Below, in pieces: positions 5,506 through 53,108 of a stretch of 64,000 bases of DNA. The stretch lies in NCBI RefSeq assembly GCF_026210795.1, contig NC_089433.1, positions 2,170,001 to 2,234,000 of the forward strand. The letters are read 5' to 3'. Source of the stretch: Rhizophagus irregularis (Eukaryota). The position numbers and the translations under genes were made by a program. A model generated the notes under the pieces. That model was not told the DNA's origin. It did not search any database and was given only the letters and a program-made list of their open reading frames with translations. Each line of letters starts with the position of its first letter. The stretch's first letter is position 1.

Positions 5506-6622
5506 TTAAATGATAAAATATAATAGGTACATACATATAATATTATTTAAAATATAAATTATATCCATTTTTGGATTTGGATTTAAAAGAAAATTAATCG
5601 TAAGCTTATAGGGTATAATTACTGTGATAGCTGGTTGAACATTATTGGCATTATTTCTGAAAAATCAACAACATTTTAGCATATTATAAATACAGTGTAA
5701 TGTCTCACAAATAGGGATCTAGTAACAAAAAATACTCACTGCGGAGGAATGACAATTGGGACAATTGGCTGTATTGGCGGTATATCTATAAAATATAAAT
5801 AATGATATAGAAACATATATTACCCATCAACACAAATTTAAAATGATATGATCGTGTAACACATTTTATCAATCTTTGATATATTTTTAATATGTAAAAA
5901 CACTTCAAGTGTAAGGGGCAAAAGATATATTCGTTCTTAACATCATTTGATAATATCTTCTCTTTCAAAACAACATTGCTTTTAATTACTCATTAAGTTT
6001 CCTTCAATCAATGAATATACATATAAAAGTGCAAAGATCATCAAAAACCCAAGGCCCCAAACTGGCTCCAAACTGGCCCAAACTGAACCTACCTTATCTA
6101 TATAATATTACTTTTCAACTAGACAATAAATGTTAACTATCTTACAGATTACTCAACTATCTAACTACCTGACGCTGTCATGACGAACCTTACCGATATA
6201 TATTTTTGGACGTATTATAAACTGCATATTTTAAATTGAAACTTACTATTAAGTTCGGCAAATCTAAAATTTTTAAATCCCATATTTTATTATTAACTTA
6301 GAATAAAAAATTTAAATATATTACAAAGGAAGGAGAAAATTTTTTTTTTACTTTTTTCTACAATCTTGCGCTGTTTTCGTTTCAAGTAAAGTTCCGATTT
6401 TATTCCAATCTTGACCATGTTCGTTAACCAACTGAAGAAGTTGATTTATCTCCTACGCATTTTAGATATGATCATGATAAGCATTTTGTAATATATAATA
6501 TAATCTATAATTAAATTTCTTAGGAAAAAGTCGATTTAAAATGTGTACGTATACAGTACATGTTCAAACCAACAAGGACCTCGTCTTTGTAAATTGCGGG
6601 TTTGGTGTTGTTGCTGATTCAT
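5506..6622 (-). CDS. Single-repeat Myb/SANT protein with two C-terminal motif copies
   Basis: Exons 6622-6560, 6452-6352, 6263-6247, 5785-5740, 5656-5506. MNQQQHQTRNLQRRGPCWFEH|EINQLLQLVNEHGQDWNKIGTLLETKTAQDCRKK|FAELN|..YKLTINFLLNPNPKMDIIYILN. The middle exon choice is uncertain. Confidence 0.78.
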
Positions 6623-6878
6623 TATATAATACTAATACAAAAAAGAACGGATTAAAGTAGATTTTTAAGATGTGTAAGTTTGATTAACCTTTTTATTTAT
6701 GTTCATGATATGGGTTTAAATTGAGGTGTTTGGTTCGGTTCCTTTTTATAAACTATAAATCGTCATGGACTTCGCCACGCGATTGATTAACCGTTACCGT
6801 TTATAGTTTTTTTATAATATTAAGCACTGAATGTTCTAGTCGGTTACATGTGGTTTACCTACACCTTAAAATAGGAAG

Positions 6879-9800
6879 GTAATAATGAATGGTGTTGCGC
6901 CCATGGAACGCTGCAAGAATTTAAAAGAAAGTCATTTTGGTGCAGATCTACAGAGAATGAAAGGATTTAGGATGAACAAAGATGTCATTTTATTATGTCA
7001 ATAATATTAATAATTTTATCGTTAAAGATGGAGCTTTTTTTTAAAAAAACTTTGATAAAAATTTTGAACATGCTCTGTGATTGATATCATGTAATCTTTA
7101 ATTCGTGAATTTTATTTAAAAAAAAAATAGAGATTATTTAAAATTTCAACAATTTCTTTATAATTTATTAGCATTAATAATCAACCTTGAATAAAAAACT
7201 ATCTTTATTTGATAATATTGTATATTCGGATTTATCTTTTTTTTTTGCGCTAGATGTTATAGTACATGTATGATAATAATATGAGAACTAAATATATCGA
7301 AAAATTTGAGCTTTATAACGTATTTTTATGAAATCCAAACTTAATATCTTCAGCTATAAACAAGAAAGAACGTAGTAATTTTTAAACCCATTTAAATTAT
7401 ACACATGAGTTTAATTGTAATTCTTCAGACTTTTTGCAAATACTTTTTCTTTTTTGCAATAATTAAAAGGAAATAAATTTTATTTAAATGCGCAGATGGT
7501 CATCATTTGTACTACCTTAACAAATTCTAATAAGAAATGTTCTCTTTTTCTTGGCATTTTAAGGAAAAAAAAGGAACATTTTTGGAAATTTGACCAACAA
7601 TCTAAATAGAAAATTCCATTTATCGCTGTAATGAACAGGTCATCCGAATTTCTTTCTGTTGGAGTTTTCTCATAATTCTGTAATTCAATTCTAGAGATTT
7701 AGAGAGTACAAATACAAATGTATGCTTTAAGTAAAAAGATAATTAAAAAACATTATATATAATATATTCATTTGATATGGTTATAGTTATAAATAGCATG
7801 AATGTATTTTAATTTAGAATAATCCTAACGCATGAACAAAGATATATATGTACGCCCAAGTCAATCATAATATATTACTAACCAGAACAAGGCTTAGTAG
7901 TTTTTTAAACTGCGGACAAAAATCTACTTAATAATATTCCGCAACCATGGGAAATGAATTTTCATGTCCCATTGGAAGGTGTCAGCCTTATATAAATAAA
8001 TAAATATTAAAAAAAATTTTACTTAATTTTGTATTAATATTTATATTAAAATTATTAAAATTATTTAGTTTAAAAAAGTAAGAATATTAGATAAACGTAT
8101 TTTTACTTATTATTTTTTTTTAAAAAAAAAAGCACTAATGAATTTACCTGATAAATCACTTCTTTCAAGTTATAAAACAAGTTGATCTACTTCACCCGCA
8201 GACAAAAAAAAAAAGTTTTTGTTATGTTGTGTAATTCACATGGTAGTATGTTTGTAACATAAACGTAAATGAGTGTGAAAGTATGGTATCGGAAACAAAT
8301 CCTATTTGAGATTCCGAACCGAAAATGAAAGGTCGAAAAAGAGAATCAGATTACCAAAAACGCAACATCGTAAGGCTATAAAATTTCTATTATTATTAAA
8401 ATGTGAATTACATTATGCATAAGCTATGATAACAAGAATAACCTAGATATCGTCATCTTATGTTTTTGACTTTTTTTTGTGTATGACCTCTATGGAATCT
8501 TTTAGTTATTAATTTTCCGATTTATATTTTTATGAAACGCCAATTTTTTTTTTATGTCAACCAATCGAATCTTTCGCAGCTTGTGCTAACTAAATTTAAC
8601 ATATTTAGTTATTTATAGCAATAACTGCTTTATTAAATTTACGCCCAAACTCAATTTCATGTACGTAATAACCGTTCTTGTGAAAATATTCACTATTAAA
8701 TCTTTTTATTTTTTGTGTCGTTTTTTCATTATGTTTTTTGCGTTTCGTATTACTTAGTATAATATTATAGAATTAGCCGAAAATAGTAACAATTATGAAG
8801 AAAACCTTACAAAAACATTTTAATATAAAAGTTCGAAAAAAAAAAATATTCATATAATTATTGTGCAATGTAACTTCTTGCGTTTTTTTATTGCCATTGA
8901 ACAAGATTCTTATTCGTTGATATAATACTTGTGACACGAAATTCTATACATTTCTTAGGTTTGCAATTTTGCAATAACAAATAGTAATAGTGTTCCATTC
9001 AAAAATTTGAGTTAACTACAATTGGTCTTTGATGTTACAAAAAAAAAATTCTCTCTTTTAAAGTACTACTTTTTTTGATCAAGCTTCAAAGGTTAAACTT
9101 ATTCTGGCAACTCAAAAGATATACACATTCTAATAAACTAAATACTGAGGGGGGTAATCCAAGTTCAATGTAAATGAATGGGTTGCCAATTTTAGGGGTG
9201 TCTAAAGCCGTGTTCTATCACGTGATTTTCCAACTGGTAATGGATATGTTACACAAGTTAAAAATAGTGTAACTTTAAAATAGATAATAATAGTGATCAA
9301 AAAATATTTAGTCAAAAAAGTTAACCGTTAAACTGCCCGAGTCTATACTAATAAATAAAGGATGTATACAGAAATCTTCATTAGTAAACTTTTAACGGTT
9401 TTTTTTGCGGGATAATGAAATATAAATATGCCCTGTTTCCTCCAATGTTATAGCCTTATATAACTCGAAATTTTTGTTTTTTTTTTGAATTTTTCTCAAC
9501 TTTTTAAGTACTATTCTCTTGCACTATAATTTAGTATTTTACTTATTCTACTGCTACCAATATATAGCCAGTGGTTTATCGTACAATATAATCATCCTCA
9601 CACGGTTTCTCTTTTTCTTTCTTTATAACCGTTGTAAACATTTTATTAATATAATATGGTAGGAAATCGTAAAGGAAGATGGATTCTTGACGTAAGTCTC
9701 TCTTTATTAATTACTGCGGTTGTATAGATAATTATCATTCATCTTATGTTTAAACTTCATCAATTTAAATGTTCAGGAGGATAGGTTATTAATCCGTCTC

Positions 9801-10996
9801 GTAAATGATGGAGAAGATATTGATTGGTCTGTCCTGGAATAAATGTAATAATGAATGGCGTTACGCCCATGGAACGCATCATTTTGGTACAGATCTACAG
9901 AGAATGAAAGGATTTAGGATAAATAAAGATGACATTTTATTATGTCGATAATGTGATTAATAATTTTATCGTTTTAAAAGTGAAAATATAAAAGAGCTTT
10001 TTTTTAAAAAAACTTTGGTAAAAATTTTGAACATGCTCTTAATTCGTGAATTTTATTTAAAAAAAAATAAAAAAATAAAGATTCTTTAAAATTTCAACAA
10101 TTTCTTTATGATTTATTAGCATTAATAATTATCCTTAAATATAAAACTATCTAAATCTTTATTTGATTATATTGTATCTTCGAATTTATCTTTTTTTTTA
10201 TTTGCGCTAGATGTTATAGTACATATATGATAATAATATGAGAACTAAATATATCGAAAATTTGAGCTTTATAACGAATTTTTATGAAATTCAAACTTAA
10301 TTAACTTCAGCTATAAACCAAAAAGAACGAAGTAATTTTTAAACCCATTTAAATTATATGCATGAGTTCAATTGTAATTCTTCAGACTTTTTGCAAATGC
10401 CTTTTTTTTTTTTAATAAAATAATGAAATTAGTAAGTTAGTATTAGTTTAGCAAAGACAAGATTTAAACAATAATTAAAAGGAAATAAATTTTTATTTAA
10501 ATGCGCAGAATGGTCATCATTTTGTACTACCTTAACAAATTCTAATAAGAAATGTTCTTATTTTTTCTTGGCATTTTAAGGAAAAAAAAAGGAACATTTT
10601 TGGAAATTTGACCAACAATCTAAATAGAAAATTCCATTTATTGTAATGATGAAATTAAACAGGTCATCCGAATTTCTTTCTGTTGAAGTTTTCTAGAGAT
10701 TTAGAGAGTACAAATATAAATGTATACTTTAAGTAAAAAGATAATTAAAAAACATTATATATAATAGATTCGATATGGTTATAGTTATAAATAGCATGAA
10801 TGTATTTTAATTTAGAACAATATGTCCTAACGCATGAACGAAGATATATATGTACGCCCAAGTCAATCATAATATATAACTAACCAAACTTAACAAGGCT
10901 TAGTAGTTGTTTTTAAACTGCGGCAACAAATCTGCTTAATAATATTCCGCAACCATGGAAAATGAATTTTCATGTCCCATTGGAAGGTGTTAGCCT

Positions 10997-11029
<33 letters not shown>

Positions 11030-13108
11030 GCATTTTTTTTAAAAAAAAAATTCTTAATTTTGTATTAATATTTATATTAAAATTATTTAATTTAAAAAAG
11101 TAAGAATATTTTTAATACTAAATAAACGTAAATTCCTGTTCGATAACATGATTTATTATTATTATTATTTTTTTTTAAAAAAAAAGCACTAATGAATTTG
11201 GACACTAATTATTCGTTTAAAACCTGATAAATCACTTCTTTCAAGTTATAAAACAAGTTGATCTACTTCTCCCGCAGACAAAAAAAAAAGTTTTTTGTTA
11301 TGTTGTGTAATTCACATGGTAGTATGTTTGTAACGTAAACGTAAATGATATGGTATCGGAAAAGCAAATGTGAATCCTATTAGGCTACACAAACATAATA
11401 TTCGGCAAATCTTATTTGAAATTTCGAACCGAAAATGAAAGGTCGAAAAAGAGAAACAGATTACCAAAAACGCAACATCGTAAGCTATTATTATTAATAA
11501 AATGTGAATTACATTATGCATAAGCTATGATAACAAGAATAACCTAGATATTGTCATCTTATGTTTTTGACCTTTTTTTGCGCACGACCTCTATGGAATC
11601 TTTTAGTTATTAATTTTCCGATTTTATATTTTAAAAAAAAAATGAAAACGCCAATTTTTTTTTTATGTCAACCAATCGAATCTTCCGCAGCTTGTGCTAA
11701 CTAAATTTAACATATTTCATAAACTTTAGTTATTTATAGTAATAATTGCTTACGCCCAAAACTCAATATCATGTACGGTATAACCGTTCTTGGGAAAATA
11801 TCACTATTAAATCTTTTTTTTTTGTGTCGTTTTTTCATTATGTTTTTTGCGTTTCGTATTACTTGGTATAATATTATGGAATTAGCCGAAAATAGTAACA
11901 ATTATGAAGAAAACCTTACAAAAACATTTTAATATAAAAGTTCGAAAAAAAAAAAATATTCATATAATTATTGTGCAATGTAACTTCTGGCGTTTTTTTT
12001 TTATTGTCATTGAACAAGATTCTTATTCGTTGATATAATACTTGTGACACGAAGTTCTATACATTTCTTAGGTTTGCACAAATAGTAATAGTGTTTCCGA
12101 CTCAAAAATTTGAGTTAACTACAATTGGTCTTTGATGTTACAAAAAAAAAAATTTCTCTCTTTTAAAGTATTACTTTTTTTGATCAAGCTTCAAAGGTTA
12201 AACTTATCCTGGCAACTCAAAAGATTATATATTATATACACTGTATGCATACAACATTCTAATTTCTATAATACTAGGGGGGTAATCCAAGTTGAATGTA
12301 AATGAATGGGTTGCCAATTTTAGTATAATATATTATATCTATTATATCATTGTAATAATAATAGTAATTTAACGTGATCATAAATATTTAGTTTCGTGCA
12401 ACCAAAAAAAATGTAACGGAGTAAATTTTAAACTGTCCCGGATTATAAGCCTATACTAAATAAAGTATGTATACAGAAAATCTTCATTCATCCAATTTCT
12501 AACTTTAGTAAACTTCTAAAGTTCTTGCCCGTATTACGCTGGTTTTTTTGGCGGGATAATGAAAAAATGAAATATAAATATGCCCTGTTTCCTTCAATGT
12601 AATAACCTTATGTAACTCGAAATTTTTTTTTTTTTTTGAATTTTTCTTTTTTTTGTCAACCTTTTTAAGTACTATTTAAATTGTCAACATTCTTTAAATA
12701 TTATTAGTGTAAGAAGAAGTGAGATATATCGTTGTTTCTCTGTGAGAACTATTATACTTCTCTTGCACTATAATTTAATATTTTACTTATTCTACTGCTA
12801 CCAATATATAGCTAGTGGTTTATCGTACAATATTATCATCCTCATACTGTCACTCTTTTTCTTTCTTTATAACCGTTGTAAACATTTTATTAATATAATA
12901 TGGTAGGAAATCGTAAAGGAAGATGGATTCTTGACGTAAGTTTCTCATTATTAATTACTGCGGTTGTATAAATAATTATTCATGGTTGGTATCATTCATC
13001 TTATGCTTAAATTTCATCAATTTAAATGTTCAGGAGGATAGGTTATTAATCCGTCTCGTAGATGAATATAGCGTTGATGGGGAAGATATTGATTGGTCTG
13101 TCTTGGAA
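6879..13108 (+). repeat. ~3-kb tandem segmental duplication (copy 1 ~6879-9842, copy 2 ~9845-13108)
   Basis: Collinear matches throughout, e.g. agatctacagagaatgaaaggatttagg at ~6944 and ~9891, and the Myb first exon at 9656 and 12900. The copies differ by many substitutions and indels. Confidence 0.93.
9656..9842 (+). pseudogene. Truncated Myb pseudogene (5' fragment of the 12900 gene)
   Basis: MVGNRKGRWILD|EDRLLIRLVNDGEDIDWSVLE*. It has a 12-nt deletion relative to the paralogue and a TAA at the duplication junction. Confidence 0.88.
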
Positions 13109-14178
13109 CAACATTTTAAAGGTACTAGAGATTCCAAGCAGATTCGCGAGAGATGGGTTAATCATTTAAATCCCAGGAGTGAGTACTTGAAATTTTTTTT
13201 TTTTTTTTTTTTTTTTTGTTATTTTATTTTATGTTCGTATGTTAAAACAATAAACATTTTCTCTCTTTAGTTAAAAAGAGGAAATTTAGTGATGAAGAGA
13301 TTAAAATAATTGAAGATGAATGTTCTAAACATAAATTTAAGTGGGCCAGGATTGCAAAGAAAATTCCTAACGCAACACCACTTATGATCAAGAATTTTTA
13401 TAATAATAGACTAAAAAAGAAAAATCCCGCAAATAGAAGACTTAGTACTTCAGCCAATATTACTCCTTTTACCATTAATAATTTTAATCATAATCCAATT
13501 ACATCTACAACTACAACCAAATCTACCGTAGCTAATAATACAACTAATATTACTAATACTTTTAACACTATTAATACTACTACTAATATTAATCATAATC
13601 ATAATCATAATCATAATAATAATTATAATTATTATAATAACGAATATCTTCAGGAACAAGATTATAGTTATTATAGTGAATCTAATTTGAAGAGGAGTGA
13701 TAGTGCTAGAACTGTGGTTGCTGAAGAGGGTAGTTATTCTACTAAGGCTATGATTGCCGAAAGTAATTACTCCACTACCAATCTATCAAGACATAGTAGT
13801 ATAAGAAGCATAATGTCTAATAGTAGCGCAACAACCGTAGTCGAAAACGAACAAGAATATGACAAACATCAATTTTTTACTACTCAAATGTCCTCCTCTC
13901 AACTTCCATCTCCCCCTCCATCTGCAGGTAATACAACCAGCTTTCTTTTTAAAATATATATGTATTTATTTATTTATTTATTTACAAATATTCATTTAAT
14001 TTTATTTATTTATTTTTATATCATAGAAATGATAAATTACACTCCTACAGAGAATGGAAAATTGAACTTTCTTGCTACAGTTGCTAATATCATGAGCCAA
14101 AGCGAGCTCTCTTCTACAACCGCACCTTCATCACCGAAAAAGTCAGGAAAAATGTCAATAATGAATCTTCTTTCTTAA
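12900..14178 (+). CDS. Two-repeat (R2R3-like) Myb transcription factor with long N/T/S-rich tail ending KMSIMNLLS
   Basis: Exons 12900-12935, 13034-13178, 13271-13927, 14027-14178. Contains RKGRW..IDWSVLEQHFKGTRDSKQIRERWVNHLNP..KWARIAKKIPNATPLMIKNFYNNRLKKK. Confidence 0.92.
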
Positions 14179-16621
14179 TTTAATACTCGTCCCTAATAAG
14201 GCTAACCTTTAAACCCAACGAAAATCACATATTTATTTCACTGTTTCCTTTTTATCTTTATTAAAAGAAAGGGAGGGAGGTTTCCTCTTATTTCTTTTTA
14301 ACATTGAGGTCAACCATACTCTTACACATTTACCAACCAATTTTAATATTCAAGGGAATGTTTATATATACACACACACATATATATAGTGTCGTCTTAG
14401 ATACATACAGTATGGGAGTTTTTTTTTTAAATATTTTGATATTCTAATTTCAGATATGAACAATTTTTAGGTTTTTTTTTTACTATCTGGTATTCGATTG
14501 TAATATAATTGATATGTTTTACATTCTTGCACCAGTCTGTGTAACATTGTAAATAATTTTTTTTTTTTACATCCAAATTTTTTTTTTATTAATAAATATT
14601 TATATACATATTTGATATTTTTTTTTTATTTATTTAATATTTTTTTTTTTTATTTGATAATAATAAATCGACTGATTTTTTACTATTATACAAAAAAACC
14701 AGTTATACACATGTACAGTACATTAGTATATGTACCCTAAATTTTAGGATGTCAAAAAACCAGCGGTGCATATACCTATACGAATTAAAATTTGTAGATC
14801 ACATTGTTAGCATACATATATTCGGACAATAACCAATGCAAATTACCATCAAGCTTTGTATTGGGAATTCATGAAATTCAGTTTATTTATATTATTTTTC
14901 TGTTTGCAGAAATAAAATGCACTGCAATAAATTCTTAATTTCCGTTATTAGTTGTGTTCCTTTAAAAAATGGAACAATTATATTCTCCATTTACATTTTT
15001 TTTATCCGTTGGTTTAAAAAATGGATATTTTAATTTTTTAATGTTACATCATTTATTTGTTTTTTTTTTCTACGAATATTGTTTATGGACTTTCTTTTTT
15101 ACGTGATGGGATTAGATGATCTCCCATCTATGTAATCTATAAATATGAAACTAGATAATTGGATCCTTACTATCCTTACCGTTTATGGGTTACCTCAATA
15201 AACTTCCAAAATTTTCTTCTTTTTGATTAAAAAAACACTTTTCCTTAATTGGTATAAATAAATTACCCGTTAGAGATAGAATCAAAGTTGGAAATTTTTT
15301 TTTACTTGAGCTGCCTTTTTTGGATAAGTATTTGCCTTTTTAAAATATTTCCATTTCTAATCCATTATTAAAAAAAAGAAGATATTTACGATTAACGTAT
15401 TGTATCATTGTAAATGGGTACAAACTTTTTTTAAAACAACCGTTAATATTGAAAATCCTTTTTTTCATTCACACCACTTCGACAACGAAATGTAACATTT
15501 AATACATAATGTTTATTCGGTTTTAAACCTGTATAGGAACTAGAAAGAAATATTAGAACATGGTATTAATAATTGGTCACTAATTTCATATACTTTCAAC
15601 GAGATTGTAGTTCAATTTTTTTTTTAAAAAAAAAATCCTCAAAACTTGAATTTTTAATTTCATACATAATTAGTACAATACTTTGTCAGATAATATTAGG
15701 TTTTTATGTAATTACGTTAGTAAACAAAATTTTTAATAAACAAACATTTATTTATTATTTACAGGTATGAAACGAGTTTTTCACCAGTAACGCAGTAAGT
15801 GGCGTGGAAAAAAAAATCGTAATCACAATGTATACTAACTTATTATATTGGGAATAATACTATTTTCATAACGCGGCGGTTCTTTCAACTGTTTTAGTAA
15901 TACAAACAAATACCAATCATCAAAAGATTTACATTTTGAATTAATAAAAGAAAATACACAAGAAAACCTTTCTCAGTTTCTTTGAGATTTTTATAAAGTA
16001 ATGTATGACCCCATACTGGATTACTAGATCACACACAAAATGTATCATACGAACAAAATATCGTAATTAATATTCTATTCATTCACTCATAAATCCTTTG
16101 AAATTAATTTTTAATATAAACTTTTTTAAACTTTGTAATTGAATGCGGGTCATTTGACTTAATGCATATAACAAAAAGTTGTCAAATGACATCGATCACT
16201 TGTCGTATGTGTTACATATTTTTCCAACATTTTTTCGTATGGATCGGATCTACTCGGATCAAATTGTCAGATTAAGTAATTTCTTAGTTATGTAAACTCT
16301 GGACCCTTTTTAACGTTTTAATATTTCGTTTTCGGGATAACCTTTTGTTTGCAAACTATGCTTTTTAGTTGAATTTAAGAAAGTAATTTTATTTTAAACG
16401 TTATAAACTACTTATTAAATAAATAACAATGAAAATACGATAAAAACAGTTAGATAAATTCATTGCAGAGTGCACTTTAAAAGGTTTGTTTTTATAAATA
16501 GCTTTTTTTTTTAAAAAAAAAACAAAATCGGTTTGTTCTTATCTAACTTTCAATAAATACTAAAAAACGAAACGAAAACTGTTTACTTATTTATTTATTT
16601 TATTTTATTTTTCTTTTCAAT

Positions 16622-17771
16622 ATGCCTCAGTTTTACCGACATCAATGGACTTACATTGTAAATATATTTATTAAAATATTAAATTGATTCAAAAATTTGA
16701 TCATGATCAATTTACATGACCATATATTTATTCATTTATAGGAGGAAATTCTCCTTATCCTGTTGGTCATTCTATTGGGCCGTAATTTGAGTAATTGGAG
16801 GCGAATTTCTCGTCTACTTAATAGAAGTGTTTTTCAGTGTAGGAGGAGGTATGTAAATATTTTTTCTCGTATGACGCAGCATATAATACCCAGGTACTAT
16901 TTACTGATCGAGTACTGTGTGTAGCGATATACGATAAAATTCTATTTTGACACATGAAATTCATCTTCGCTCTTTTGCATATGAAATTTTAGGTATTATG
17001 AAATTATAAATCAAGATAGTGGTAAGCACAACTCTTTTAAAATTTGTACTTGATTAGTATTTTATTGAAATGATCTCTCTGAACAGATTTATTAATATAT
17101 TTATTTTTTTTATTCCATTGGTATAGGGAGTGCTCGAAGGATTCGTAGAAGAGTTAATCAGAGAGTTTCTCAAGGACTTCGACCAATAGCTCTTGAAAGA
17201 CTCCTCCATGGAATTCTTTTAGCTCAGCAGTAAGTTCTTTATGTAAAATTATTTCTAATAAAAGAAGTGAATCGATGAAGTTGAACCCTCAAACCTTCAA
17301 ACCTTCCATCCTTCAAACCTTCCATCCTTTCATCCTTCCATCCTTCCATCAAAAATAGATGGATCAATTTCTACGTTTTCAAAATTTATGATTCTTCCCA
17401 TAAAGGTAGAAACGTATGTTTCCTTCCTAATTTTTTCATATGAGAGGATATCATAATCTTTGATAACAAATCATGCATCGTAATACTGTTAACTTGTAAT
17501 ATGAAACTGATCTTTATTTCTTTATTTTGATTACAGGAATAACACCATATCTCGTGATCCAAGAATGGATCTAAGTCATATTTTGAATACTTCTCGTGAT
17601 CTAAGTACTTCTAATTCCTCTCATGATTCACGAGATCCGAGAATGAATTTAAGTCATGTTTTAAATATTTTCCGAGATTCTAGGATGAATTTAAATCATA
17701 TTTTAAATTCTTCGCAAGATCCTAGAATGAATCTGAATTTTATTTTAAACAATTCCTTAAATCATGGCTAG
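16622..17771 (+). CDS. Single-repeat Myb/SANT protein with Arg-rich linker and four C-terminal motif copies
   Basis: Exons 16622-16657, 16742-16848, 16993-17021, 17127-17229, 17537-17771. HQWTYI|EEILLILLV..SNWRRISRLLNRSVFQCRRR|YYEII..(DPRMxLxxILN)x4. The frame is open across all junctions. Confidence 0.85.
17288..17350 (+). repeat. Intronic 8-bp minisatellite (cttcaaac/cttccatc)
   Basis: About 8 tandem units of cttc(a/c)a(a/t)c. Confidence 0.75.
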
Positions 17772-21980: not shown

Positions 21981-22599
21981 ATGATGAATCAACAGCATCA
22001 ACACAAACCCTCTATACAAAGAAAGAGGCCATGGCTCATATATGTAATATCTCTGTTTTTCTCTTTTACTATACTTTTTTTATTTATTATAATATTTTTT
22101 TTATGATTTATATAGGAAGAAATGTTACTTCATGAATTAGTTAATGAATATGTCAATGACTGGATATTAATCTCATCAAAACTTCAAACAAGGACTGCAC
22201 ATGATTGCAAAATAAAGTATGTCGAACTTTCAAAATCAAGTAGTAAGTATAATTCATAGTGGGCACGGAAGTATGGTATTTCAAAATATTTAACAGTTAA
22301 ATTTGTTCATTTTAACAGTTACACAAAAAAATCGTTTTCAGTAAGTTTTTTTTAATATCCAAATGGCACCAAAGACGTACTGTTGGTCGCCGATTGAATT
22401 ATTGGACATTGGAAGATCATGTGATTTATGATTTATCGCAGCTTACTATTTATACTAAATTTAGATATTATTTAATTTCAGAAATAACGTTAATAATAAT
22501 AATGCGATTCCTCCAACCACTCCCGTGATTGTGGTTCCATCTAATTCTAGACCAATAAATCGAAACCAAAAAATGGATTTGAGATATATAATGAATTAA
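21981..22599 (+). CDS. Single-repeat Myb/SANT protein ending KMDLRYIMN
   Basis: Exons 21981-22043, 22116-22242, 22319-22340, 22482-22599. RKRPWLIY|EEMLLHELVNEYVNDWILISSKLQTRTAHDCKIKYVELSKSS|..RNQKMDLRYIMN*. Confidence 0.85.
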
Positions 22600-23867: not shown

Positions 23868-24658
23868 ATGACTACATACAAAAGAGGACCGTGGAACAAT
23901 TTTGTACGTATTTAAAAATTAACTTTCCTTAAAACTTTGATTAATTGTAACCTTTTAAACTTTATTTAGGAAATTGGAAATCTCATTACTTCTATGAGTA
24001 AACATGGTCGTCATCAAAGGAAACTAATCGAACAAGAAGTTGGAAGAACATTTATCGAATGCGTGAAAAAGTATGGTTTTATTTATTACAACAAAAATTA
24101 ATTTGACTTAACTTTTATTCATTATATTATATTATTTCTTTTTTTTCCAGATATAATGAAATTTTAGGTATGTGCTTACACAGTAGTACAATTATAAAAA
24201 ATAGTACTAGTTTATGATCTAGTATCTTTTTATTAAAATATAAATTTTTATTTTTTATTTTATTTATCTATTTTTTTAGGAGTCCAAAATTACCGTCATC
24301 GTAATCATAGTCGTTGTATTCGTCATATGCGTAATATCCGACAGTGAGTATTTTCAAATTTCACTATACCATAATGTACAGTACCCTCTATATAAATGCG
24401 TCTACTATGTTAAATGTCTTATATAAACTTTATGGTCCTTGGTGCACTTATAGAGAGTTGACTCCATTGCTTTTATTAATGGTTGATATATCACAATCCA
24501 ACTATTATCTAAATTAAATTTTATTTAATTTCAGAAATAATGTTGTTGCCGCTGCTGACAATATTTTAACAATTCCTCCAGTAAATATATCTAATCATAG
24601 GCATCGAAATCCAATTATGGAATGGAGCTACATCCTTAATGATGATTCTAATTCGTGA
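23868..24658 (+). CDS. Divergent single-repeat Myb/SANT protein (second Trp replaced by Arg)
   Basis: Exons 23868-23903, 23970-24070, 24151-24167, 24280-24343, 24535-24658. KRGPWNNF|EIGNLITSMSKHGRHQRKLIEQEVGRTFIECVKK|YNEIL..RNPIMEWSYILNDDSNS*. Confidence 0.8.
24379..24464. mobile_element. Possible small degenerate pogo-like MITE inside an intron
   Basis: TA-cagtaccctctatataa ... ttatagagagttgact forms imperfect inverted termini. Confidence 0.35.
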
Positions 24659-35328: not shown

Positions 35329-36009
35329 ATGAGCAGAATTTGGACTTCTCAAGTATACACATATTATTCTCTTTTAACATACATATATATATATATACAG
35401 ATTAACCTAAGATTTTTTAATTCGTTTATATAGGAAGTGAGAGATCTCATGTCAAGTGTCAATGATTTGGGTGTTAGAAATTGGCAAGCAATCGCAAATA
35501 GGATTGGGACAAGAACTGCAAAGCAATGCAGGAGAAGGTTTTTATTATTCATAGTTTTGGCAAATAAATCGACATACGATCTAATTTTAATAATGTATTT
35601 CTAGGTACCTGGAACTTGGAATAGCAAATTGTAAGTACCAAAATATTTAATAAGTTAGATTGGTAGATTCAAAACATATGAAAGTTATTAGTAATAATTC
35701 AAAATATATCTGATATACAATTATAAGATGAATTTATTGGCAAATTGTTAACGAGCATATTTATTTTTTCATTTAACAGTTGTACGACAAAGAATACCTC
35801 CCCCTCCTCCCCCTCCTCCTCCTCCGTATGTATTATTTCTTGAATTATGAATGTAGATCGACAACATGCATATTGCTAAAATTATATAACCGTTTTTCAA
35901 TAGTGTCGTCGCTCTTGGTATGCCGATCATTCCACGTAATTACCGAATGTCAATTAATTTTTTTTTAAATCAAGATTATAGAATGAGCATTAATTTTCTT
36001 CTTAATTAA
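35329..36009 (+). CDS. Single-repeat Myb/SANT protein with poly-Pro linker and two motif copies
   Basis: Exons 35329-35352, 35434-35537, 35605-35630, 35780-35825, 35904-36009. MSRIWTSQ|EVRDLMSSVNDLGVRNWQAIANRIGTRTAKQCRRR|YLEL..PPPPPPPPPP..RMSINFFLNQDYRMSINFLLN*. Confidence 0.88.
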
Positions 36010-37558: not shown

Positions 37559-38362
37559 ATGAATCAAACAAACTTATTAGTAGTTTCGATTAGAAACCAG
37601 TGGACACCTGGTGTAAATAAACTTTTAGTTTTATATTCTTATTTCTTTTTTTTTAAAAAAAAAAAATAATAATTTTTAACAATGAATACATATATATACA
37701 TATAAATAGGAAGATAGCCGATTAATAACTGCTGTAGATCGGTTTGGGGCCCGTAATTGGAATCGTATTTCCCTTGAAGTTAGGACCCGCAGTTCAACAG
37801 AATGCCAAGCAAGGTTTGTTCAATCATAAATTACTGCGTTGCTTATAACTTAGCATTTACATTAAATTATATAACTTTTTTATTAAAAGATGGCGTCAGA
37901 TAAATTTTAATAATGGTAAAGTAGCATATATTCTTTAAGTGGTCGGCTTAAGTGGTCGGTTTATTTGTAATTTTCAAAATTTTTTAAATATAATTTGTAC
38001 ATAGTGCATCGACCGAATAGAAGATTGAATCAAGGTCTTTTCGACGTTGCTAGAAGAAATTTATATTACATTAGACCTCAAAGATATGCATGTAAGATTC
38101 AAATATTTATTTATATGTTTTACAATTTATTATTATTATTATAATAATGAAATATTTTATTATTATCTGTTATCTGTTATTAGTAAATTTGAATCAACGT
38201 CGATCATTTCAGTTAGGACAAACAATGCAAGCAATGGCAAATCCTATTCAAAATACAATGTCTCTAAATTGTATTTTAACTCATGATAGAAATATTCGAA
38301 TGGAGTTAGGATATATTTTGGAAAATCCCGTACCACATTACTTTCGTAATGACCCTAATTAA
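37559..38362 (+). CDS. Single-repeat Myb/SANT protein with two motif copies
   Basis: Exons 37559-37612, 37710-37813, 37890-37915, 38005-38091, 38184-38362. NQWTPG|EDSRLITAVDRFGARNWNRISLEVRTRSSTECQAR|WRQI..TMSLNCILTHDRNIRMELGYILE. Confidence 0.87.
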
Positions 38363-43535: not shown

Positions 43536-44356
43536 ATGACATCAAATATTCTCAGAGGATTATGGAATGAATCGGTAAGTTATACATATGATGTATAAAT
43601 GCAATGAGAATTAATCTATTAGTAAAAGTATCCTTCTTGACCCGTGCGTAAGTCAAGTCCGATGCTTTCGTACTTCTATTGACGGAAAAATTTGATTTTC
43701 CACGTGTATTGTTTTTACGCCAGATTTCCTATTTGATATTTTTTAATTAATTAATTTTTTTTTTTTTTTGCAGGAGGACGGACGACTTCGTTACCTCGTA
43801 AAGCAATTCAGAATCTGTCATGAACAGGATGAGCAGATCTCTTGGGCAAGTATCTCCTATTACATGGGAACACGAACGGCTAAACAATGTAGAGAACGGT
43901 AAATTATCTACTTTTTAATATATGCACAATAATGTCATCGCACATATTTAACTTATTGTATCTACATTATTTTAGATGGATAAATCATTTGAATGAAACC
44001 AGTAAGTTGAAGCATATGTTACATATTTCTTACGCATAGCTGTGCATCCAATTGTAAACCCTAAACCCTTACTTAACCCTTACCAATCCTAAATTGCAGA
44101 AAGTTTGATATGAATCTTTTTTTTTTTGTTTTTAGTAGATAAATCTCCCTTGAGTGAGGAAGAGGAACGTTACATATTAACACTAAGTCGACTACAGCCT
44201 GATTTAACTTACGTCCAAATTTCCGAAAAATTGCCCGGGAGAACTCCATTAATTGTCAAGAATTTCATTTACAGAGACAGAGCAAAAAAAGCTAAATCCG
44301 CTTTGAGAATAAGAAAGAAGATGAGATTGTCAAACATGTTAAATCCGAGAACTTAA
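43536..44356 (+). CDS. Two-repeat (R2R3-like) Myb protein ending KKMRLSNMLNPRT
   Basis: Exons 43536-43574, 43774-43898, 43976-44001, 44136-44356. RGLWNES|EDGRLRYLV..ISWASISYYMGTRTAKQCRER|WINHLNET|IDKSPLSEEEE..ISEKLPGRTPLIVKNFIY. Confidence 0.9.
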
Positions 44357-45632
44357 AACGTTTTTTTCTTTTTTTTTTAAAAAAAATAATAATAATAATG
44401 ACGATATCACGACAAAATATAAGAATAACGATTAATAATCAACTATCGAAAGAATTTTTCTCTGGGATAATAATTATTTAATAACGAACAATTATCAAAA
44501 AAACTTTACAATTACCGTATCGTATTTAATTTTTTTTTTTAATAATTTAACGCATTACCCATTAGTAGTATAAGAATTACGATTAACCTAAGTACCTTTA
44601 ATAATTTAACCCACTAACTTAAGCGGATAACATTATGAATTATGTATTATTTATTATATAAGTTTCGAATTTTTAAGAAATTTAAATTAACCTATGTATA
44701 TTAGTACTATTAAGCTTTTAAACCGATTATTATGATTATAAGATGATTATAAGAAATACAAATATTTAATATATGTAATTTATAAGATAAGATTTTATAA
44801 ATGTAAATAAGACGATATTTTTTTAAAAAAAAAACTATATACAGTAGATTTTTCATAATAAATATTTATATTTTTGTAAATAGCAAAAAATTAAAGAAAT
44901 CTATTATGCATACAATTAAATTCCTGAAAGATTTAGTAGGTCTTCGAGTTAATCTGTAGCAATATCTTTAGAAAGTATACGAATATGTTTAATAAATCCA
45001 GAAAATTGAGAATAACAATCATGTGCAAGTTATTTTAATCATAGCAATTCCTGATAACATCGACGGTTAAACCTTTTGCCGGAACAACGACGCGTCACAA
45101 AGAACTAGGTTGTATATATATATATATATATGAGATTTGACAAATACATTGCAATTTGGTAATTATAATAAGCAATGTAAGTTTCTAATGGACGTGACCG
45201 GCGCATAGACTGAAAAATTCATACATATAAAAAAATGCTTATGTTACTGATGATATTATAGGTAAAGTTAATAAACTTAACTACCCCAATTTTTATCAAT
45301 CTTTACTCGCGGCTAAAAATGAAGTTCATTACTATAAAAGGAACCAAATCACATGACACTACAGTTTAGTACGACCTTCGGATGACAGTAATTGTCTATT
45401 TGAGACGAGAATCGAGAATATGCAAGTTTATTCATTTTATAAATATATTTTATCTGATTTTAGTAACAGTAAGCAAAGAAAATATAATAAAATAAGAATA
45501 AGATTTATAGTATTTTCTTTTTTTATGTATTGTACAACACGATCAAAAAGCTGTACTAAAAGTTAACAAGAATTATCGGTCAAATTCACCAAAAATTAAA
45601 AGAAAAAAGAACAATGTTTTACAAAATATATA

Positions 45633-46456
45633 CAGTCCTGGTCATAAGTATCCATACCCCAATATTTTCTGAAGTTATGTCATAACCTATCCTAAAAATT
45701 TCCAGGATTGACATACAAAATTAGAGGTTCGTACAATATATAAATCAAAAGTTAGATGATTGGGCAAATTTTGTGTTTTATAAAAAATTATCATCTTTTA
45801 CATGAATATTTTCATTTAACCTTTTAGTATATATATATTTTTTTGATATATTAATTTTTAAGTGTCATACACATTTCTCTAGAATTTTTATCAGATTAGA
45901 TACATAGCCAGGGAATTTCAATTATACCATAATCTTTCTTTCACTTTTTCGCGATTTTTGAATGGTGTTGAGGATTATTAATTTTATGCAGTATTTATTC
46001 TAAGTTTTTTTTGCCAATATAAATACTATGCATAAAATGGGTATTAAAGTTCTGCTGAAAGCAAATTGGTTTGCTAAATTCCTGAGCAAAAAAATCACCA
46101 TAAAAATGGATTTTTTGCAAATAATATGATTTTTTTTATTATTTAAGTCTTTATTTTAATGGTATTTTTGGCCCAATAAGTGGCCATAATTTAATTATAA
46201 TGAATGTAAGTAACTATTTTTTTCAAAATTTTACTTTAGTTCAATTGAATATTTACGTACAAAAAACTATTTTGGATAATTTATTAGGAAAATCAACATT
46301 TTGCAGCTAAAATTCATCGATCATCTAACTACTGATTTATTGCACGAACTTCTAATTTTGTAGATTAGTATTTATCTTCAATCCTGGAAATTTTTAGGGT
46401 AGGTTATCACATAACTTCAGAAAATATTGGGGCACGGATACTTATGACCAGGCCTA
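45633..46456. mobile_element. Non-autonomous Tc1/mariner-type element (~824 bp) with long imperfect TIRs and TA target duplication
   Basis: Left end TA-cagtcctggtcataagtatccataccccaatattttctgaagttatg... matches the reverse complement of ~46335-46456 over roughly 100 bp. There is no transposase ORF. Confidence 0.88.
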
Positions 46457-46504
46457 TAAGAAGTCAATTTACAAACTGCATATTAGAATCGGTTGTATTT
46501 AATG

Positions 46505-46562
46505 TTAATTTAGAATGTAATTTAATGACATTCTAACATCACGACGTGAAGTTGCATTTCGA
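46505..46562 (-). other. Orphan Myb-family terminal exon (RNATSRRDVRMSLNYILN*)
   Basis: AG acceptor followed by T-CGA-AAT-GCA. It is homologous to, and in the same phase as, the last exon 48209-48140. I found no Myb exons of its own upstream. Confidence 0.7.
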
Positions 46563-48139: not shown

Positions 48140-48961
48140 TTAATTTAAAATATAATCTAATGTCATCCTAATATCACGATGTGTCGGTGTATTTGAAGCT
48201 GCATTTCGACTAAAGAGAATTAAAACTTTGTAAATATTACAATGTAATTTAACATAAAAATTGAAGTTAATTAAACTAACATAGCATTCCTGAAACGAGA
48301 AGTTTGACGATAATTGACAGCTATTATCAAAAAGAACCTGGTTAAAATGTAATATTTTGCAATTTTTTTTTTTAAAAAAAAATGATAATAATAATTATTG
48401 TTGATTACCTCTAAGTCTTCGAATCATTCTTGGCCTATGGGTGGAGCTAAGATTATGATTAATTTGTAAAAGCATAAATGCTGAAATTTTTGAAATGGAA
48501 ATCATTGAAAAATTAATGCGTGATCACGTGGACTGCCACCGTAATTATTGGGTGCTTACCACTGTAAATAATCCAACTCCATCTTTTAGATAAAAATAAA
48601 ATAATTATTAATATAATTGAATACTGTACGATTAAAGAACGTTCCAAATTACGTTACTGCGCAGTACTGCGCTACTGACGCAAAGAGGTCTAGTAACACG
48701 CCCTAAACATTAATAATATAATAGATATAACATAGTCGCACCTGTTTCGACATTCTCTCGGACTACGAGTTGCAACTTCACGAGAAATATTATTCCAACT
48801 ACGGTTACGAATACCAAACCGATTTACGGCAATGATTAACCGATTATCCTCCTTAAAAAGAAAACCATTTTCAATGATAATGTAATAGAAAAGAAAATAA
48901 AAAAAGTCCTTCTTACAATAGGTAACCATGACGAATTAGAATATGATAATTGTGTATTCAT
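48140..48961 (-). CDS. Single-repeat Myb/SANT protein ending RMTLDYILN
   Basis: Exons 48961-48917, 48851-48742, 48582-48560, 48480-48409, 48320-48281, 48209-48140. SSWLPI|EDNRLIIAVNRFGIRNRSWNNISREVATRSPRECRNR|WSWII..HRDIRMTLDYILN*. Confidence 0.83.
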
Positions 48962-51898
48962 CTTTATTATTAGCGTAAATGCGTCAAAAATAAATAAATA
49001 AATATTTGAAAGTTTTTATATACTAAATTTGAATAAATGTGTATTTTTTTTTTTTGATATTTAATGAAAAAAAAATTAGAGAGAAAGAAAGTGAGAGAGG
49101 ATAAATTCTGTATGAATCAGATAATAAATCAAAAAGGTGAAATAAACTTCAGATTTTTTGTAAAACATTTGATGAACTTTAATCTTTTTTTTATGGCTTA
49201 TTGTGGCTAGTTAAACTAAATACTAGCCACTGTAACTGTGAGAAAAATGGGTTACTAATTAAACCGGAAAAATCTCGTTTTTTAATTAGTTAATATTCGC
49301 ACATAATGTTGCACGAGTACAATGAATTCAATTACGCACCAAAAAGCCATGAAAAGAACAAAGAAAAGCATTAAGGTACTGACTAGCTAAATCAGAGAAT
49401 TTTTAGATGATCTATACACGGATAAAATCAACATGCATGTACTGCAAAAAAAATTAGCCATTAATTTGCACTACGAATTATTAACTTTTTACATCATTTT
49501 AGGTTATCCCCATATTTAGAGAAAGCACCGAAACATCCCTTCAAAGATTAAGATATACTAACTATTTCCTTAGAAAATTGATCACATATCGGTCATTTAT
49601 CGGAGTTTTTATAGGGGGTGAGTTTTTTGCCCAATTTAAAAAAAAGTTAGTCAAAATACATAAATGTCACAATGTCACAATATCCGATACAAAAATCTTT
49701 ACAAGAATTATTTTAAAATTAAATGTTGATCATAGCTAATTAGATAGGTATTTTGTATGTTATCAGCCACTCAACCATACACAATGTGACGATGTAGATC
49801 AATAATAACACAAACCAAAACGTATTATGATGTAATAAACTTTTGCGGATGAAATCTATAAAACGTCCGATATAAAAGTAAATAGTCAAATAGTAACAAA
49901 CATGTTATCAATATATTGTTGTGCGATGCATCTTGGTTATTTTTAAATATGAATAACTCTTTAAAATTTTATGCTAATTTGAAAAGTAAAATCTATGTAA
50001 AATAGTGTGAGCCAGCCAATAAAATCACTTTAATCTAAGAAATCAATCAAATAAAGGTTAGAACAGATGCGCCGCTGCGCACCATATGATTATGCAATTA
50101 AAAATGAGAGCAGTCATAATATCACAGTTTCTGGCATTCTTATTTTGATACATTTTTGGTATAAGTTATTACATAAATAGTAAAACGGCTTGAACTTTCT
50201 CAAATGCATAAATAATCTTTAATAAATGTTTCAGTTCTTTCATTAATTTATCATTAAAAAGAGACTATAAAAATATTAGTACAACTTTAATAATATTATT
50301 TTTCTATAATGCAAATTTATTAAATTTATTCCCTTTTAAAAAAAACATATATGAAAATAGCATATAATATGGTGGGAAAATTCCAAATTTTTTATTTTTC
50401 TCTCGGTAAAATAAATAACTCTAATAACGGAAGAAAAGCGGGGAACTGGGGTAATGATTCAAAGACTGGATAAAGTAAAAAATTTTTCACATCATTATTA
50501 AAAGTGTTGAACTCTGCGAAACTAGTCATAACAAACAAACATTGTTTATTTATATAATAAATATCAAAATTTCTATTGTTCAATTCGAGTCATTGTTGAA
50601 ATAAATGAGGGACAAATTTTTGTACGACACAAACAAATGATTTGGTGCAATTTAGGAAACATAATCATCAAGAAAAAAAAATCTGTCTGCTATTGGATAA
50701 AGTTTATACAATTAATCATCATTTGTATCATTTTGAATCTTAAAGTATTAGCAGAAATTTTCTTTCACGGACTGTTCGCTAGTATTTTCTTAGCAATTTC
50801 AACCCATCTAAATTTATTCTCTTTTCAGCTATTTATTTTGTTTGATGAAATGGGAAAGAATAAGTTATTTACGATCGATGATCAAAGTAAGGATTAGAAT
50901 GAATCTGTTTTGAGTTCTCGTTTCATTGAAATGTTTTTCGATTTTTATTAATTGAAACTATTTTCATAACACCAAATTTAAATATTTATAAATTAATATA
51001 TATTTATTTATTTATATATACGTGTATTTACATATAATGGCGCCAAACTTTATCATTAAAGATTTAAAGTTCATTAACTTAACGGAGTCGTATATTTATT
51101 TTGCAGTCATATTGTTTGTTTGATCATCAAAATATAAAAATATCCATGTAAATAAATCATTAGCAAACTTTGCAATACTTTGAAAAAAAAAAAACATTTA
51201 ATAATTAATCAAAATATTGTCGATCAACGCCAATACCCAAAATTGGGTGGTTGATTGATTGGTTGAATATTTTATGCACAAATCATAATAGAACTATTGT
51301 AATAAAATTGAAAGTGAAAGAGATTAAGTTTATATATATAAATTACGTTTTTAGACTCCTTAAAATCCTTACCAAATTAAATTAAATTAAATAAATTTAA
51401 ACTTTAGGAACAATAAAATGAAATCAATGCTTTGTATATCCAATTTTATCAGTTTCTTTCCGACGATAAATTACTCTTTTTGATCCGGTAAAAACAATTG
51501 ATAATAGATCTCTATTTTGATGTTCGGGCTCGGCTTTTTTTATCCAGTTAAATATTTGTTATTTCAATTGTTCTTTTAGATGCAAGACAACAGTACTTAT
51601 GATTCAAAGTATTTGTAAATTTTATATTTTAGAACAATGTAATTATGCAGACTCTAATTTACTATGGGCTGTAAATATTATAAATACAGTACTAAGTTCT
51701 TCACAAGATACAATTCGTTCATATCAGTCGATAGAATGAAATTTAAATAATAGTTCCTCCTCTCGCTTCTTCTTTTTTCCCTGATTCTTAAAAAACAAAA
51801 TAGATAAATAAATAAATTGGTCTTTTCGCCAATTTAACTTGATAGCTGGCTATACATATTTTACTTTGTTTTCGAATCATCGTTCTTGAATATTAAGG

Positions 51899-53108
51899 AT
51901 GTCTAACCCTAATAATCCGAATAATCCTAATAATCCTAATAATCCGAATATTCCTAATAATCCGAATATTCCTAATAATCCGAATATTCCTAATAATCCT
52001 AATAATCCGAATCCATTATGGTGGACAGATGATGTAATAATAATTTGTTATGTCTCGGAATATTGTTTTAGCTCGCCAACATACAGTCGGCTCTCGATAT
52101 AACGAACCCTCCGGTTTTCACCTCAGTTCGTTATAAGGTTATAGCGAAGAATTTTAAAGAATTTAATTGGTTGATTCATTATAATGAGTATTTGATTGGT
52201 TAGATGTCGCATGTTCGGAAAAATTCGTTTCGACAGTTCGTTATATCGAGAGCCGACTGTAAATTGTTATGATATGATTCACTAAATAATACGTAGTATA
52301 AATTGAATTCTGATTTATGTCAATAGATCACGTAACCGTGAAATTTTGTTAGCGATGTCAGTGAAGACGATATATTTTCTTTTCTTATTCATTATTATTC
52401 TCAAATTTTTAGGAAATCGAACGATTGAATAATGCCGTGTTCATACTTGGTCCTCGTAATTGGAATAATATTGCTCGCCAAGTTAGGACCCGTACCTCGG
52501 TGGAATGTCAAACTATGTATGTTTCGCCCCAATTTGAGTACTATTTGCTTATTATAATAATATTATATTTCGTTAATATTTTAACTGTATATACAACTAA
52601 TGAAGATGGAGACGATTAACATATTATAATTGTAAGTGATATATATTCCTTTAATATGTTACCTCTCATTTATGATTCACTTCATACGAGTTATAGTTTA
52701 ATTGATCTTCCATTTCATTTTAAATATATCAGCAATGAATCTTAATCGTCCTGCAACTTTAAACCTTGGCATGTCTCAAAGATTTGCAGGTAAATAAATT
52801 ATCATTTATTGTATTTTAGACTACATTAAATATAATATTTAACAACAATATTCTTTATTAACAGTCAATTATCGTAATATGGCGTAAGATTTTTTTAAAA
52901 AAAAATACATACATTCATTTATTCGTTTCAATTTAATTTAACAATATAATTATTTTATAGTCAAAACGGTCAAAGCGAAGGTCAAAATTCTATCAGCTTA
53001 ACAGCAATACTTACAAATCCAATACAACAAAACACTAGAATGTCAATAAATTATATTTTGACTCATGATCGTGATATGAGGATGACAATTTATTATATAA
53101 CTATATAA
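51899..53108 (+). CDS. Single-repeat Myb/SANT protein with N-terminal (NPN/IPN)n repeat and 2-3 motif copies
   Basis: Exons 51899-52033, 52413-52516, 52606-52631, 52733-52789, 52865-52883, 52961-53108. WWTDD|EIERLNNAVFILGPRNWNNIARQVRTRTSVECQTI|WRRL..TRMSINYILTHDRDMRMTIYYITI*. Confidence 0.85.
52084..52259. mobile_element. 176-bp pogo/Tigger-like MITE in intron 1 of the 51899 gene
   Basis: Perfect 24-bp TIR cagtcggctctcgatataacgaac, flanked by TA on both sides. Confidence 0.93.

What the first reader, a model, noticed from the sequence alone, without database searches (positions are those of the whole stretch)
5506..53108. Conserved C-terminal short linear motif [R/K]MxI/LxxI/LLN in 13 of 14 genes
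Seen: KMSIMNLLS, KMDIIYILN, RMDLSHILN, KMDLRYIMN, IMEWSYILN, RMNINYILS, RMNINFIID, RMSINFLLN, RMELGYILE, RMTLGYVLN, KMRLSNMLN, RMTLDYILN and RMSINYILT. The motif is kept while the linkers are mostly unalignable. Known: the hydrophobic spacing parallels the eh1 motif (FxIxxIL, binds Groucho/TLE) and the start of the Mad1 Sin3-interaction helix (RMNIQMLL). Inference: it is an amphipathic corepressor-docking peptide for Tup1/Cyc8 or Sin3.
Basis: partly seen in the sequence, partly recalled or inferred. Interest (0 to 1): 0.82.

Follow-up and report, generated by a model that had tools for sequence, protein, structure and literature searches.

The report
Repressor tail on fungal Myb array
A cluster of 14 related Myb gene-regulator genes in a root-symbiotic fungus keeps a short water-repelling peptide at the protein end, often in several copies, which likely docks the fungal gene-silencing protein Tup1 as a known yeast repressor peptide does.

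Summary
The window is a tandem array of 14 Myb genes of Rhizophagus irregularis (3 two-repeat, 11 single-repeat). Thirteen carry the motif in the last exon, 23 copies in all; 7 genes have 2-4 copies. Met at position 2 is invariant in the 13 listed copies, linkers are unalignable (2 of 55 pairs), and core codons vary synonymously. The motif is kept in other Glomeraceae orthologues and is rare in Myb proteins at large (2 of 147). Caveats: the copies share one ancestry, the literal consensus fits only 4 of 13, and public models of two genes splice the motif out. The closest known match is the MATalpha2 N-terminal peptide (IxIxxLL), the Phe-less eh1 variant that binds Tup1 WD40 repeats. It is not canonical eh1 (0 of 23 aromatic-first) nor a Mad1/PAH2 Sin3 helix (0 of 23); a separate upstream helix in one gene fits PAH2. 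The fungus has a Tup1 with the Tup-type Tyr/Leu pocket. Binding is untested. The single-repeat members lack Myb base-reading residues and may be adaptors or decoys. Verdict: new variant of a known kind, moderate interest.

The parts
4385..4992 (+). g01: two-repeat Myb gene, 138 aa, no tail motif; 102 of 133 aligned residues identical to g03
   Evidence: the R. clarus match P0082 also ends without the motif
5506..6622 (-). g02: single-repeat Myb, 125 aa; two motif copies at 5607-5545
   Evidence: 99% identical to public model P0022
9656..9839 (+). broken 5' duplicate of g03 (exon 1 and part of exon 2), no tail
12900..14178 (+). g03: two-repeat Myb, 329 aa; one motif copy at 14149-14175 directly before the stop
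   Evidence: transcribed, first intron read-supported
14062..14085 (+). second conserved hydrophobic stretch of g03 (L-x-x-L-A-x-V-A), fits the Sin3 PAH2-binder consensus
   Evidence: consensus from PMC8657803
16622..17771 (+). g04: single-repeat Myb, 169 aa; four motif copies at 17562-17750
   Evidence: all four introns supported by RNA reads
17359..17413 (+). minor alternative exon of g04; its use ends the frame before all four motif copies
   Evidence: (28 of 121 reads at donor 17229)
21981..22599 (+). g05: single-repeat Myb, 109 aa; motif 22570-22596 before the stop
   Evidence: kept in R. clarus and R. diaphanus
23868..24658 (+). g06: divergent single-repeat Myb, 113 aa; most divergent motif copy, 24614-24640
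   Evidence: public model P0032
26380..27305 (+). g07: single-repeat Myb, 132 aa; two copies at 27228-27296
   Evidence: public model P0028
31948..32687 (+). g08: single-repeat Myb, 114 aa; two copies at 32592-32654; coding status of the motif uncertain
   Evidence: public models P0017, P0019, P0033 lack it
35329..36009 (+). g09: single-repeat Myb, 101 aa; two copies at 35944-36006
   Evidence: public model P0016
37559..38362 (+). g10: single-repeat Myb, 149 aa; two copies at 38255-38323
   Evidence: public model P0010
40629..41095 (+). g11: single-repeat Myb, 5' end unresolved (SAM-domain exons upstream); motif 41057-41083, coding status uncertain
   Evidence: public models P0011, P0012, P0015 lack the motif
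43536..44356 (+). g12: compact two-repeat Myb, 136 aa; motif 44318-44344
   Evidence: kept in R. clarus P0073
46505..46562 (-). orphan copy of the last exon of g14 with a further motif copy, no Myb exon of its own; possibly an alternative last exon
48140..48961 (-). g14: single-repeat Myb, 119 aa; motif 48169-48143 before the stop
   Evidence: kept in R. clarus P0050
51899..53108 (+). g15: single-repeat Myb, 162 aa; three copies at 52989-53105
   Evidence: no public model among my hits

Best explanation
The motif is a conserved hydrophobic peptide at the end of 13 paralogous Myb proteins that likely folds into a short amphipathic helix on the top face of the Tup1 WD40 propeller, as the yeast MATalpha2 peptide is thought to, and so would recruit Tup1-Cyc8 and make these proteins repressors. 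Shown: gene models, 23 copies, protein-level conservation, transcription and splicing of g03 and g04, a Tup1 with the Tup-type pocket in the same species. Inferred: helix formation on binding, the partner, repression, and that extra copies raise avidity. The two-repeat members g03 and g12 likely bind DNA as ordinary Myb factors; how the single-repeat members are targeted is open.
For: Pattern: basic-M-x-[IL]-x-x-[IL]-L-N matches residues 3-11 of alpha2 as printed in PMC10163088 Table 2 (K-I-x-I-x-x-L-L-N), whose Ile4, Leu9 and Leu10 are needed for Tup1 binding (PMC4943189; PMC4901127). First hydrophobic residue is M 20, L 2, I 1 and aromatic 0 of 23, as Copley's structural argument predicts for Tup-type pockets. 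R. irregularis Tup1 P0279 matches 1ERJ at 8e-114 and has the Tyr/Leu pair, as do 55 of 55 aligned Tup1 rows. Constraint acts on the protein: where two genes share a residue at core positions 4, 7, 8, only 136 of 364 pairs share the codon. 7 of 8 g03 relatives keep the motif at the C-terminus, including a Funneliformis protein whose linker is about 150 residues shorter. The tail is low-confidence in the fold model (pLDDT under 50 for 98-134) with short helices over both copies. An unnamed two-repeat Myb, P0078, which groups outside the array's two-repeat clade, ends in a copy whose first four residues equal alpha2's.
Against: No binding or repression data. Without the first Phe the pattern is poorly specified and many amphipathic helices fit it (PMC4943189). 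Yeast repression domains of 50-60 aa often bind Sin3, Cyc8 and Tup1 alike (PMC10163088), so one partner cannot be read from sequence. The pattern also fits the Sap25 type I PAH1 spacing. Only 5 of 13 listed copies fit Copley's [VI]xx[IL][LM] screen, because Leu often replaces Ile. Position 6 is aromatic or His in 19 of 23 copies, which alpha2 does not share. Public models of g08 and g11 omit the motif. The 13 genes are one lineage, so this is one origin retained, not 13 observations.
Confidence: 0.58

Rival explanations
1. The peptide is a corepressor-docking helix, but its main partner is Sin3 (PAH1) or Cyc8 TPRs, or it binds all three loosely.
For: phi-x-phi-x-x-phi is the Sap25 type I PAH1 pattern, and short yeast domains bind several corepressors.
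Against: The PAH2 consensus phi-x-x-L-phi-x-phi-A is met by 0 of 23 copies, and 5 end at the stop. g03 has a separate stretch that does meet it, which suggests the two stretches serve different partners. Sin3 and Cyc8 of this fungus were not fetched.
Confidence: 0.18
2. The peptide is a turnover or transport signal (degron or export signal) and not a repression motif.
For: Short, hydrophobic, C-terminal and repeated, in a low-confidence tail. WD40 and other adaptors read such peptides (own knowledge).
Against: The last copy lies 0-12 residues from the end and the terminal residues vary, unlike end-read degrons. The spacing is not the usual leucine-rich export spacing (recalled, not tested by a tool). 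The host proteins are Myb factors and the match to alpha2 extends to the flanking basic residue and Asn.
Confidence: 0.1
3. The peptide folds back on the protein's own Myb repeat or mediates dimers among array members.
For: Single Myb repeats often need a partner surface (own knowledge), and these have lost the base-reading residues.
Against: The fold model of g07 gives no confident tail-to-domain packing (shallow alignment of 10). The motif is also on the two-repeat members, 200 residues from the domain in g03, and its copy number varies from 1 to 4.
Confidence: 0.08
4. The motif is a passive relic of recent duplication of the last exon with no function.
For: All copies descend from one ancestor (shared intron phases). 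g01 lacks it and is conserved without it. Two genes may splice it out. An orphan copy exists.
Against: Flanking columns fall to 0.03-0.32 mean identity while Met is 1.0 and Leu8 0.71; core codons are largely resampled; the motif survives in Glomus and Funneliformis while the linker changes.
Confidence: 0.04

Closest known systems
MATalpha2 N-terminal Tup1-binding peptide (IxIxxLL; Phe-less eh1 variant), S. cerevisiae
   Same: Basic residue, then phi-x-phi-x-x-phi-phi, then Asn; non-aromatic first residue; outside the DNA-binding domain of a fungal transcription factor; conserved in orthologues.
   Different: C-terminal, not N-terminal; Met first; often aromatic or His at position 6; 1-4 tandem copies, 12-16 residues apart (once 26); on Myb, not homeodomain, proteins; binding untested.
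eh1 / Groucho-TLE interaction motif (FS[VI]xx[IL][LM])
   Same: Same hydrophobic spacing; likely the same kind of short helix on a WD40 top face.
   Different: No Phe or Tyr first (0 of 23); the fungus's corepressor has the Tup-type Tyr/Leu pocket, reported as incompatible with Phe-first binding.
Sin3-interaction domains (Mad1, HBP1, Pf1, TGIF1 on PAH2; Sap25 on PAH1)
   Same: Amphipathic, disordered-until-bound peptide; Sap25 type I spacing fits.
   Different: The PAH2 consensus Ala is missing in all 23 copies; it is met instead by a separate upstream stretch in the g03 family.
Plant single-repeat MYB repressors (CPC/TRY, MYBL2) and EAR-bearing R2R3-MYBs (recalled, not tested)
   Same: Small Myb proteins, clustered paralogues, C-terminal repression peptide, single repeats acting through partners.
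   Different: Different peptide and corepressor (TOPLESS binds LxLxL through its N-terminal domain); no sign of shared descent beyond the Myb fold.

Membership tests
alpha2-type Tup1-docking motif | hydrophobic spacing phi-x-phi-x-x-phi-phi | tested here: met
   13 of 13 listed copies
alpha2-type Tup1-docking motif | non-aromatic first hydrophobic residue | tested here: met
alpha2-type Tup1-docking motif | in an unstructured part of a transcription factor, conserved in orthologues | tested here: met
alpha2-type Tup1-docking motif | host encodes Tup1 with the Tyr/Leu pocket | tested here: met
   P0279, Tyr564 and Leu580
alpha2-type Tup1-docking motif | binds the Tup1 WD40 domain and represses through its hydrophobic residues | not testable with these tools
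   needs binding and reporter assays
eh1 (Groucho/TLE) | Phe or Tyr as first residue | tested here: not met
   0 of 23; definition from PMC4943189
eh1 (Groucho/TLE) | partner with the Groucho-type Phe/Glu pocket | tested here: not met
   the corepressor found has Tyr/Leu; the proteome could not be searched for a second one
Sin3 PAH2-binding SID (C-terminal motif) | phi-x-x-L-phi-x-phi-A | tested here: not met
   0 of 23 have the Ala; 5 end at the stop
Sin3 PAH2-binding SID (upstream stretch of g03) | phi-x-x-L-phi-x-phi-A | tested here: met
   6 of 7 full-length g03-family proteins, counting Ala as hydrophobic; the seventh has Thr at position 7; binding untested
Sin3 PAH1-binding SID, Sap25 type I | phi-x-phi-x-x-phi | tested here: inconclusive
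   pattern fits but is too loose to assign
Myb/SANT domain (PF00249, PF13921) | profile match of the repeat | tested here: met
   6 of 7 Myb exons scanned matched at E up to 0.004, some below the curated cut-off as single exons; the second repeat of g12 did not; whole g12 matches c-Myb at 6e-19
sequence-specific two-repeat Myb (single-repeat members) | c-Myb R2 recognition-helix Lys, Glu, Asn and a second repeat (role of these residues recalled) | tested here: not met
   Lys 1 of 11, Glu 0 of 11, Asn 0 of 11 in single-repeat genes; all three in 3 of 3 two-repeat genes

The most novel reading that the evidence does not exclude
Rhizophagus has turned a two-repeat Myb repressor into a fast-evolving family of tiny single-repeat adaptors or decoys that no longer read the Myb site and carry up to four Tup1-docking peptides. 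Motif copy number, a splice switch that drops the tail (g04) and a conserved tail-less twin (g01 beside g03) would tune how much Tup1 is recruited or soaked up. The 23 natural variants would then define the general fungal Tup1-docking code.
Probability: 0.2. Interest if true: 0.72.

Novelty: new variant of a known kind. Interest (0 to 1): 0.45.

Why it matters
How fungal repressors recruit Tup1 is thinly mapped: the papers read give alpha2 as the one detailed case and call the Phe-less motif poorly specified. A natural series of 23 variants under selection gives a ready alignment for defining that motif, testable in yeast with short peptides. It would also give a first repression mechanism for a transcription-factor family in an arbuscular mycorrhizal fungus, where genetics is hard. 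If the peptide simply behaves like alpha2's, the result is a useful extension, not a surprise.

Tried and rejected
Feature searches of the ESM Atlas with the g04 and g03 tails gave no usable hit. Pfam has no family for the g04 tail. RNA reads were laid only on 12800-18200, so 12 of 14 genes, including the doubtful g08 and g11, have no read test; the run search listed no indexed RNA holder, which is no evidence either way. A tree of the first repeat (62 columns, 11 of 25 forks open) did not settle the order of events. Earlier findings of this scan: none by place, words or sequence. Komachi and Johnson 1997 was not held. An automatic splice finder gave wrong models for several genes and was replaced by curated ones. 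A search for the source of two signal-peptide Myb proteins with a similar tail found bacterial relatives, none with the motif at its end, read by eye. Rejected: chance, neutral relic, canonical eh1 and Mad1-type SID membership.
Full report
What the window is. The DNA is 25% GC and intron-rich. Protein searches return Rhizophagus irregularis models at up to 100% identity, so it comes from this arbuscular mycorrhizal fungus or a very close relative. Between 4385 and 53108 lie 14 Myb genes, which I modelled with GT-AG introns and open frames: three with two repeats (g01, g03, g12) and eleven with one. Ten of the 14 models match a public protein at 96% or more. All 13 models with a resolved 5' end share a phase-0 intron in helix 1, g12 and 10 of 11 single-repeat genes share a phase-2 intron in helix 3, and all 14 share a phase-1 intron just after the repeat. 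This shows common descent.

The observation. All 13 peptides are present, in the last exon, in frame with the Myb repeat in my models. A looser pattern finds 23 copies in the 13 genes; seven genes carry 2-4, spaced 12-16 residues apart and once 26. The literal pattern occurs 8 times against 0.09 in shuffles. Anchored on the 13 listed copies, mean pairwise identity is 1.0 at Met2, 0.71 at position 8 and 0.37-0.47 at positions 1, 4, 6, 7 and 9, against 0.03-0.32 in the flanks; linkers align in 2 of 55 pairs and Myb cores in 49 of 55. Identical residues at core positions use the same codon in only 136 of 364 cross-gene pairs, so the constraint is on the peptide. Against: the literal consensus fits 4 of 13; of 24 array-related public proteins, 13 carry the motif and 11 do not, among them all six models of g08 and g11 (the other five look like truncated or intron-read-through predictions, my judgement).

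Expression. Poly(A) reads of runs X22-X24 (two samples, about a quarter of each run read) were laid on 12800-18200 only. All four g04 introns are read-supported; 93 reads join exon 4 to the motif exon. Another 28 reads use an acceptor at 17359, which ends the frame before the motifs. g03 is covered through its last exon; its first intron has 20 reads, and its other two are seen only as gaps between contig pieces of run X9, whose RNA status is a guess.

Distribution. Seven of 8 g03 relatives (R. irregularis, R. clarus, Glomus cerebriforme, Funneliformis geosporum, unnamed) end in the motif; the eighth stops early. R. clarus orthologues of g05, g12 and g14 keep it, and the orthologue of g01 lacks it as g01 does. 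Among the 150 best representatives of a library-wide search, after dropping the three query members, 2 of 147 have the strict motif within 15 residues of the end (0.03 expected) and 7 of 147 a looser one (1.0 expected). One of the 49 non-array proteins, the unnamed two-repeat Myb P0078, has it. It is therefore no general Myb feature but does occur outside this array.

What it resembles. Copley (PMC4943189; parts 1-3 of 5 of the text read) notes that alpha2 binds Tup1 WD40 through IxIxxLL, that Tup1 Y580 and L596 would clash with the Phe of eh1, and that Tup proteins may bind eh1-like motifs lacking it. Burglin and Affolter (PMC4901127; passages) call the alpha2 peptide a modified eh1. The alpha2 sequence printed by Lettow et al. 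(PMC10163088; abstract, sections 11, 21 and the first part of 12 read) lines up with our motif from the basic residue to the Asn. I found the R. irregularis Tup1 (P0279); it matches 1ERJ and has the Tyr/Leu pair. Fep1 binds the same top face of Tup11 at about 10 uM (PMC3419727; passages), and that face is conserved in fission yeasts (PMC2882346; passages). Komachi et al. 1994 I know only through these papers. No supplements were read; Copley's alignments could bear on whether Glomeromycota were examined.

Sin3. The PAH2-binder consensus is phi-x-x-L-phi-x-phi-A (PMC8657803; passages). No copy of the terminal motif has that Ala and five end at the stop. g03 has a second conserved stretch 29 residues upstream that meets the consensus in 6 of 7 full-length relatives. 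g03 would thus carry one Sin3-type and one Tup1-type peptide (inferred). PAH1 or Cyc8 binding by the terminal motif is not excluded, since short yeast domains often bind all three corepressors.

Mechanism. Shown: a selected peptide in a low-confidence tail with helical tendency, on transcribed Myb genes, in a fungus with a Tup-type pocket. Inferred: it docks as a short helix on Tup1 and represses; repeats raise avidity, more likely by rebinding than by spanning two propellers, given five-residue spacers. g12 aligns with c-Myb R2R3, and all three two-repeat genes keep the recognition-helix Lys, Glu and Asn; the single-repeat genes keep them in 1, 0 and 0 of 11 (the role of these residues is recalled). 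These members likely reach chromatin through partners or Arg-rich linkers, or act as decoys. g01 is a tail-less near-twin of g03, a possible competitor. No complex could be modelled, so the partner rests on motif likeness alone.

Novelty. Eight full-text searches (listings only unless named above) found no paper on this array or motif; 'Rhizophagus, Tup1, corepressor' gave 0 papers. The library lacks most subscription journals. The motif class is known from alpha2 and was predicted for other fungal factors, so this is a variant: Met-first, C-terminal, repeated, on an expanded Myb family. Interest 0.45; confidence in Tup1 docking 0.58.

Noticed in passing
P0108 and P0090: Two unnamed metagenome proteins with a signal-peptide-like start, 6-8 Myb repeats and a C-terminal copy of the same hydrophobic spacing; possibly secreted mimics from an intracellular bacterium. 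P0113 has a similar end without the leader. Their source was not found.
   Followed up: partly
L124:2860-3786, L125:24-3778, L126:2962-3654, L127:2980-4080: Bacterial genome bins (Puniceicoccales, a proteobacterium, an alphaproteobacterium) encode eukaryote-type Myb-repeat proteins among bacterial genes, most with signal-peptide-like starts, four in tandem in L125; none ends in the motif.
   Followed up: partly
window 39691-40320: Two tandem SAM-domain exons lie where exon 1 of g11 should be; public models fuse them to the Myb repeat.
   Followed up: partly
window 52083-52260: Small element with terminal inverted repeats (MITE-like) inside intron 1 of g15.
   Followed up: no
window 45631-46458: 81-nt inverted arms, 93% complementary, 666 nt apart, next to the orphan last exon; probably a non-autonomous transposon.
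   Followed up: no
window 7100-12980: Recent tandem duplication of about 3 kb upstream of g03 that left the broken gene copy at 9656-9839.
   Followed up: partly
window 53360-54009: About four copies of a 167-nt unit downstream of g15.
   Followed up: no
window 22116-22242: g05 lacks the phase-2 intron that the other ten single-repeat genes and g12 share.
   Followed up: no
window 51899-52021: g15 begins with a three-residue Asn/Pro repeat of about 13 units.
   Followed up: no
window 55631-56995 and 60481-60798: Flanking housekeeping genes: an Fe/Mn superoxide dismutase and an Isu/NifU-type scaffold.
   Followed up: no
window 455-790 and 28512-28919: Open frames of 111 and 135 codons with no Pfam match; possibly transposon remnants.
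   Followed up: no
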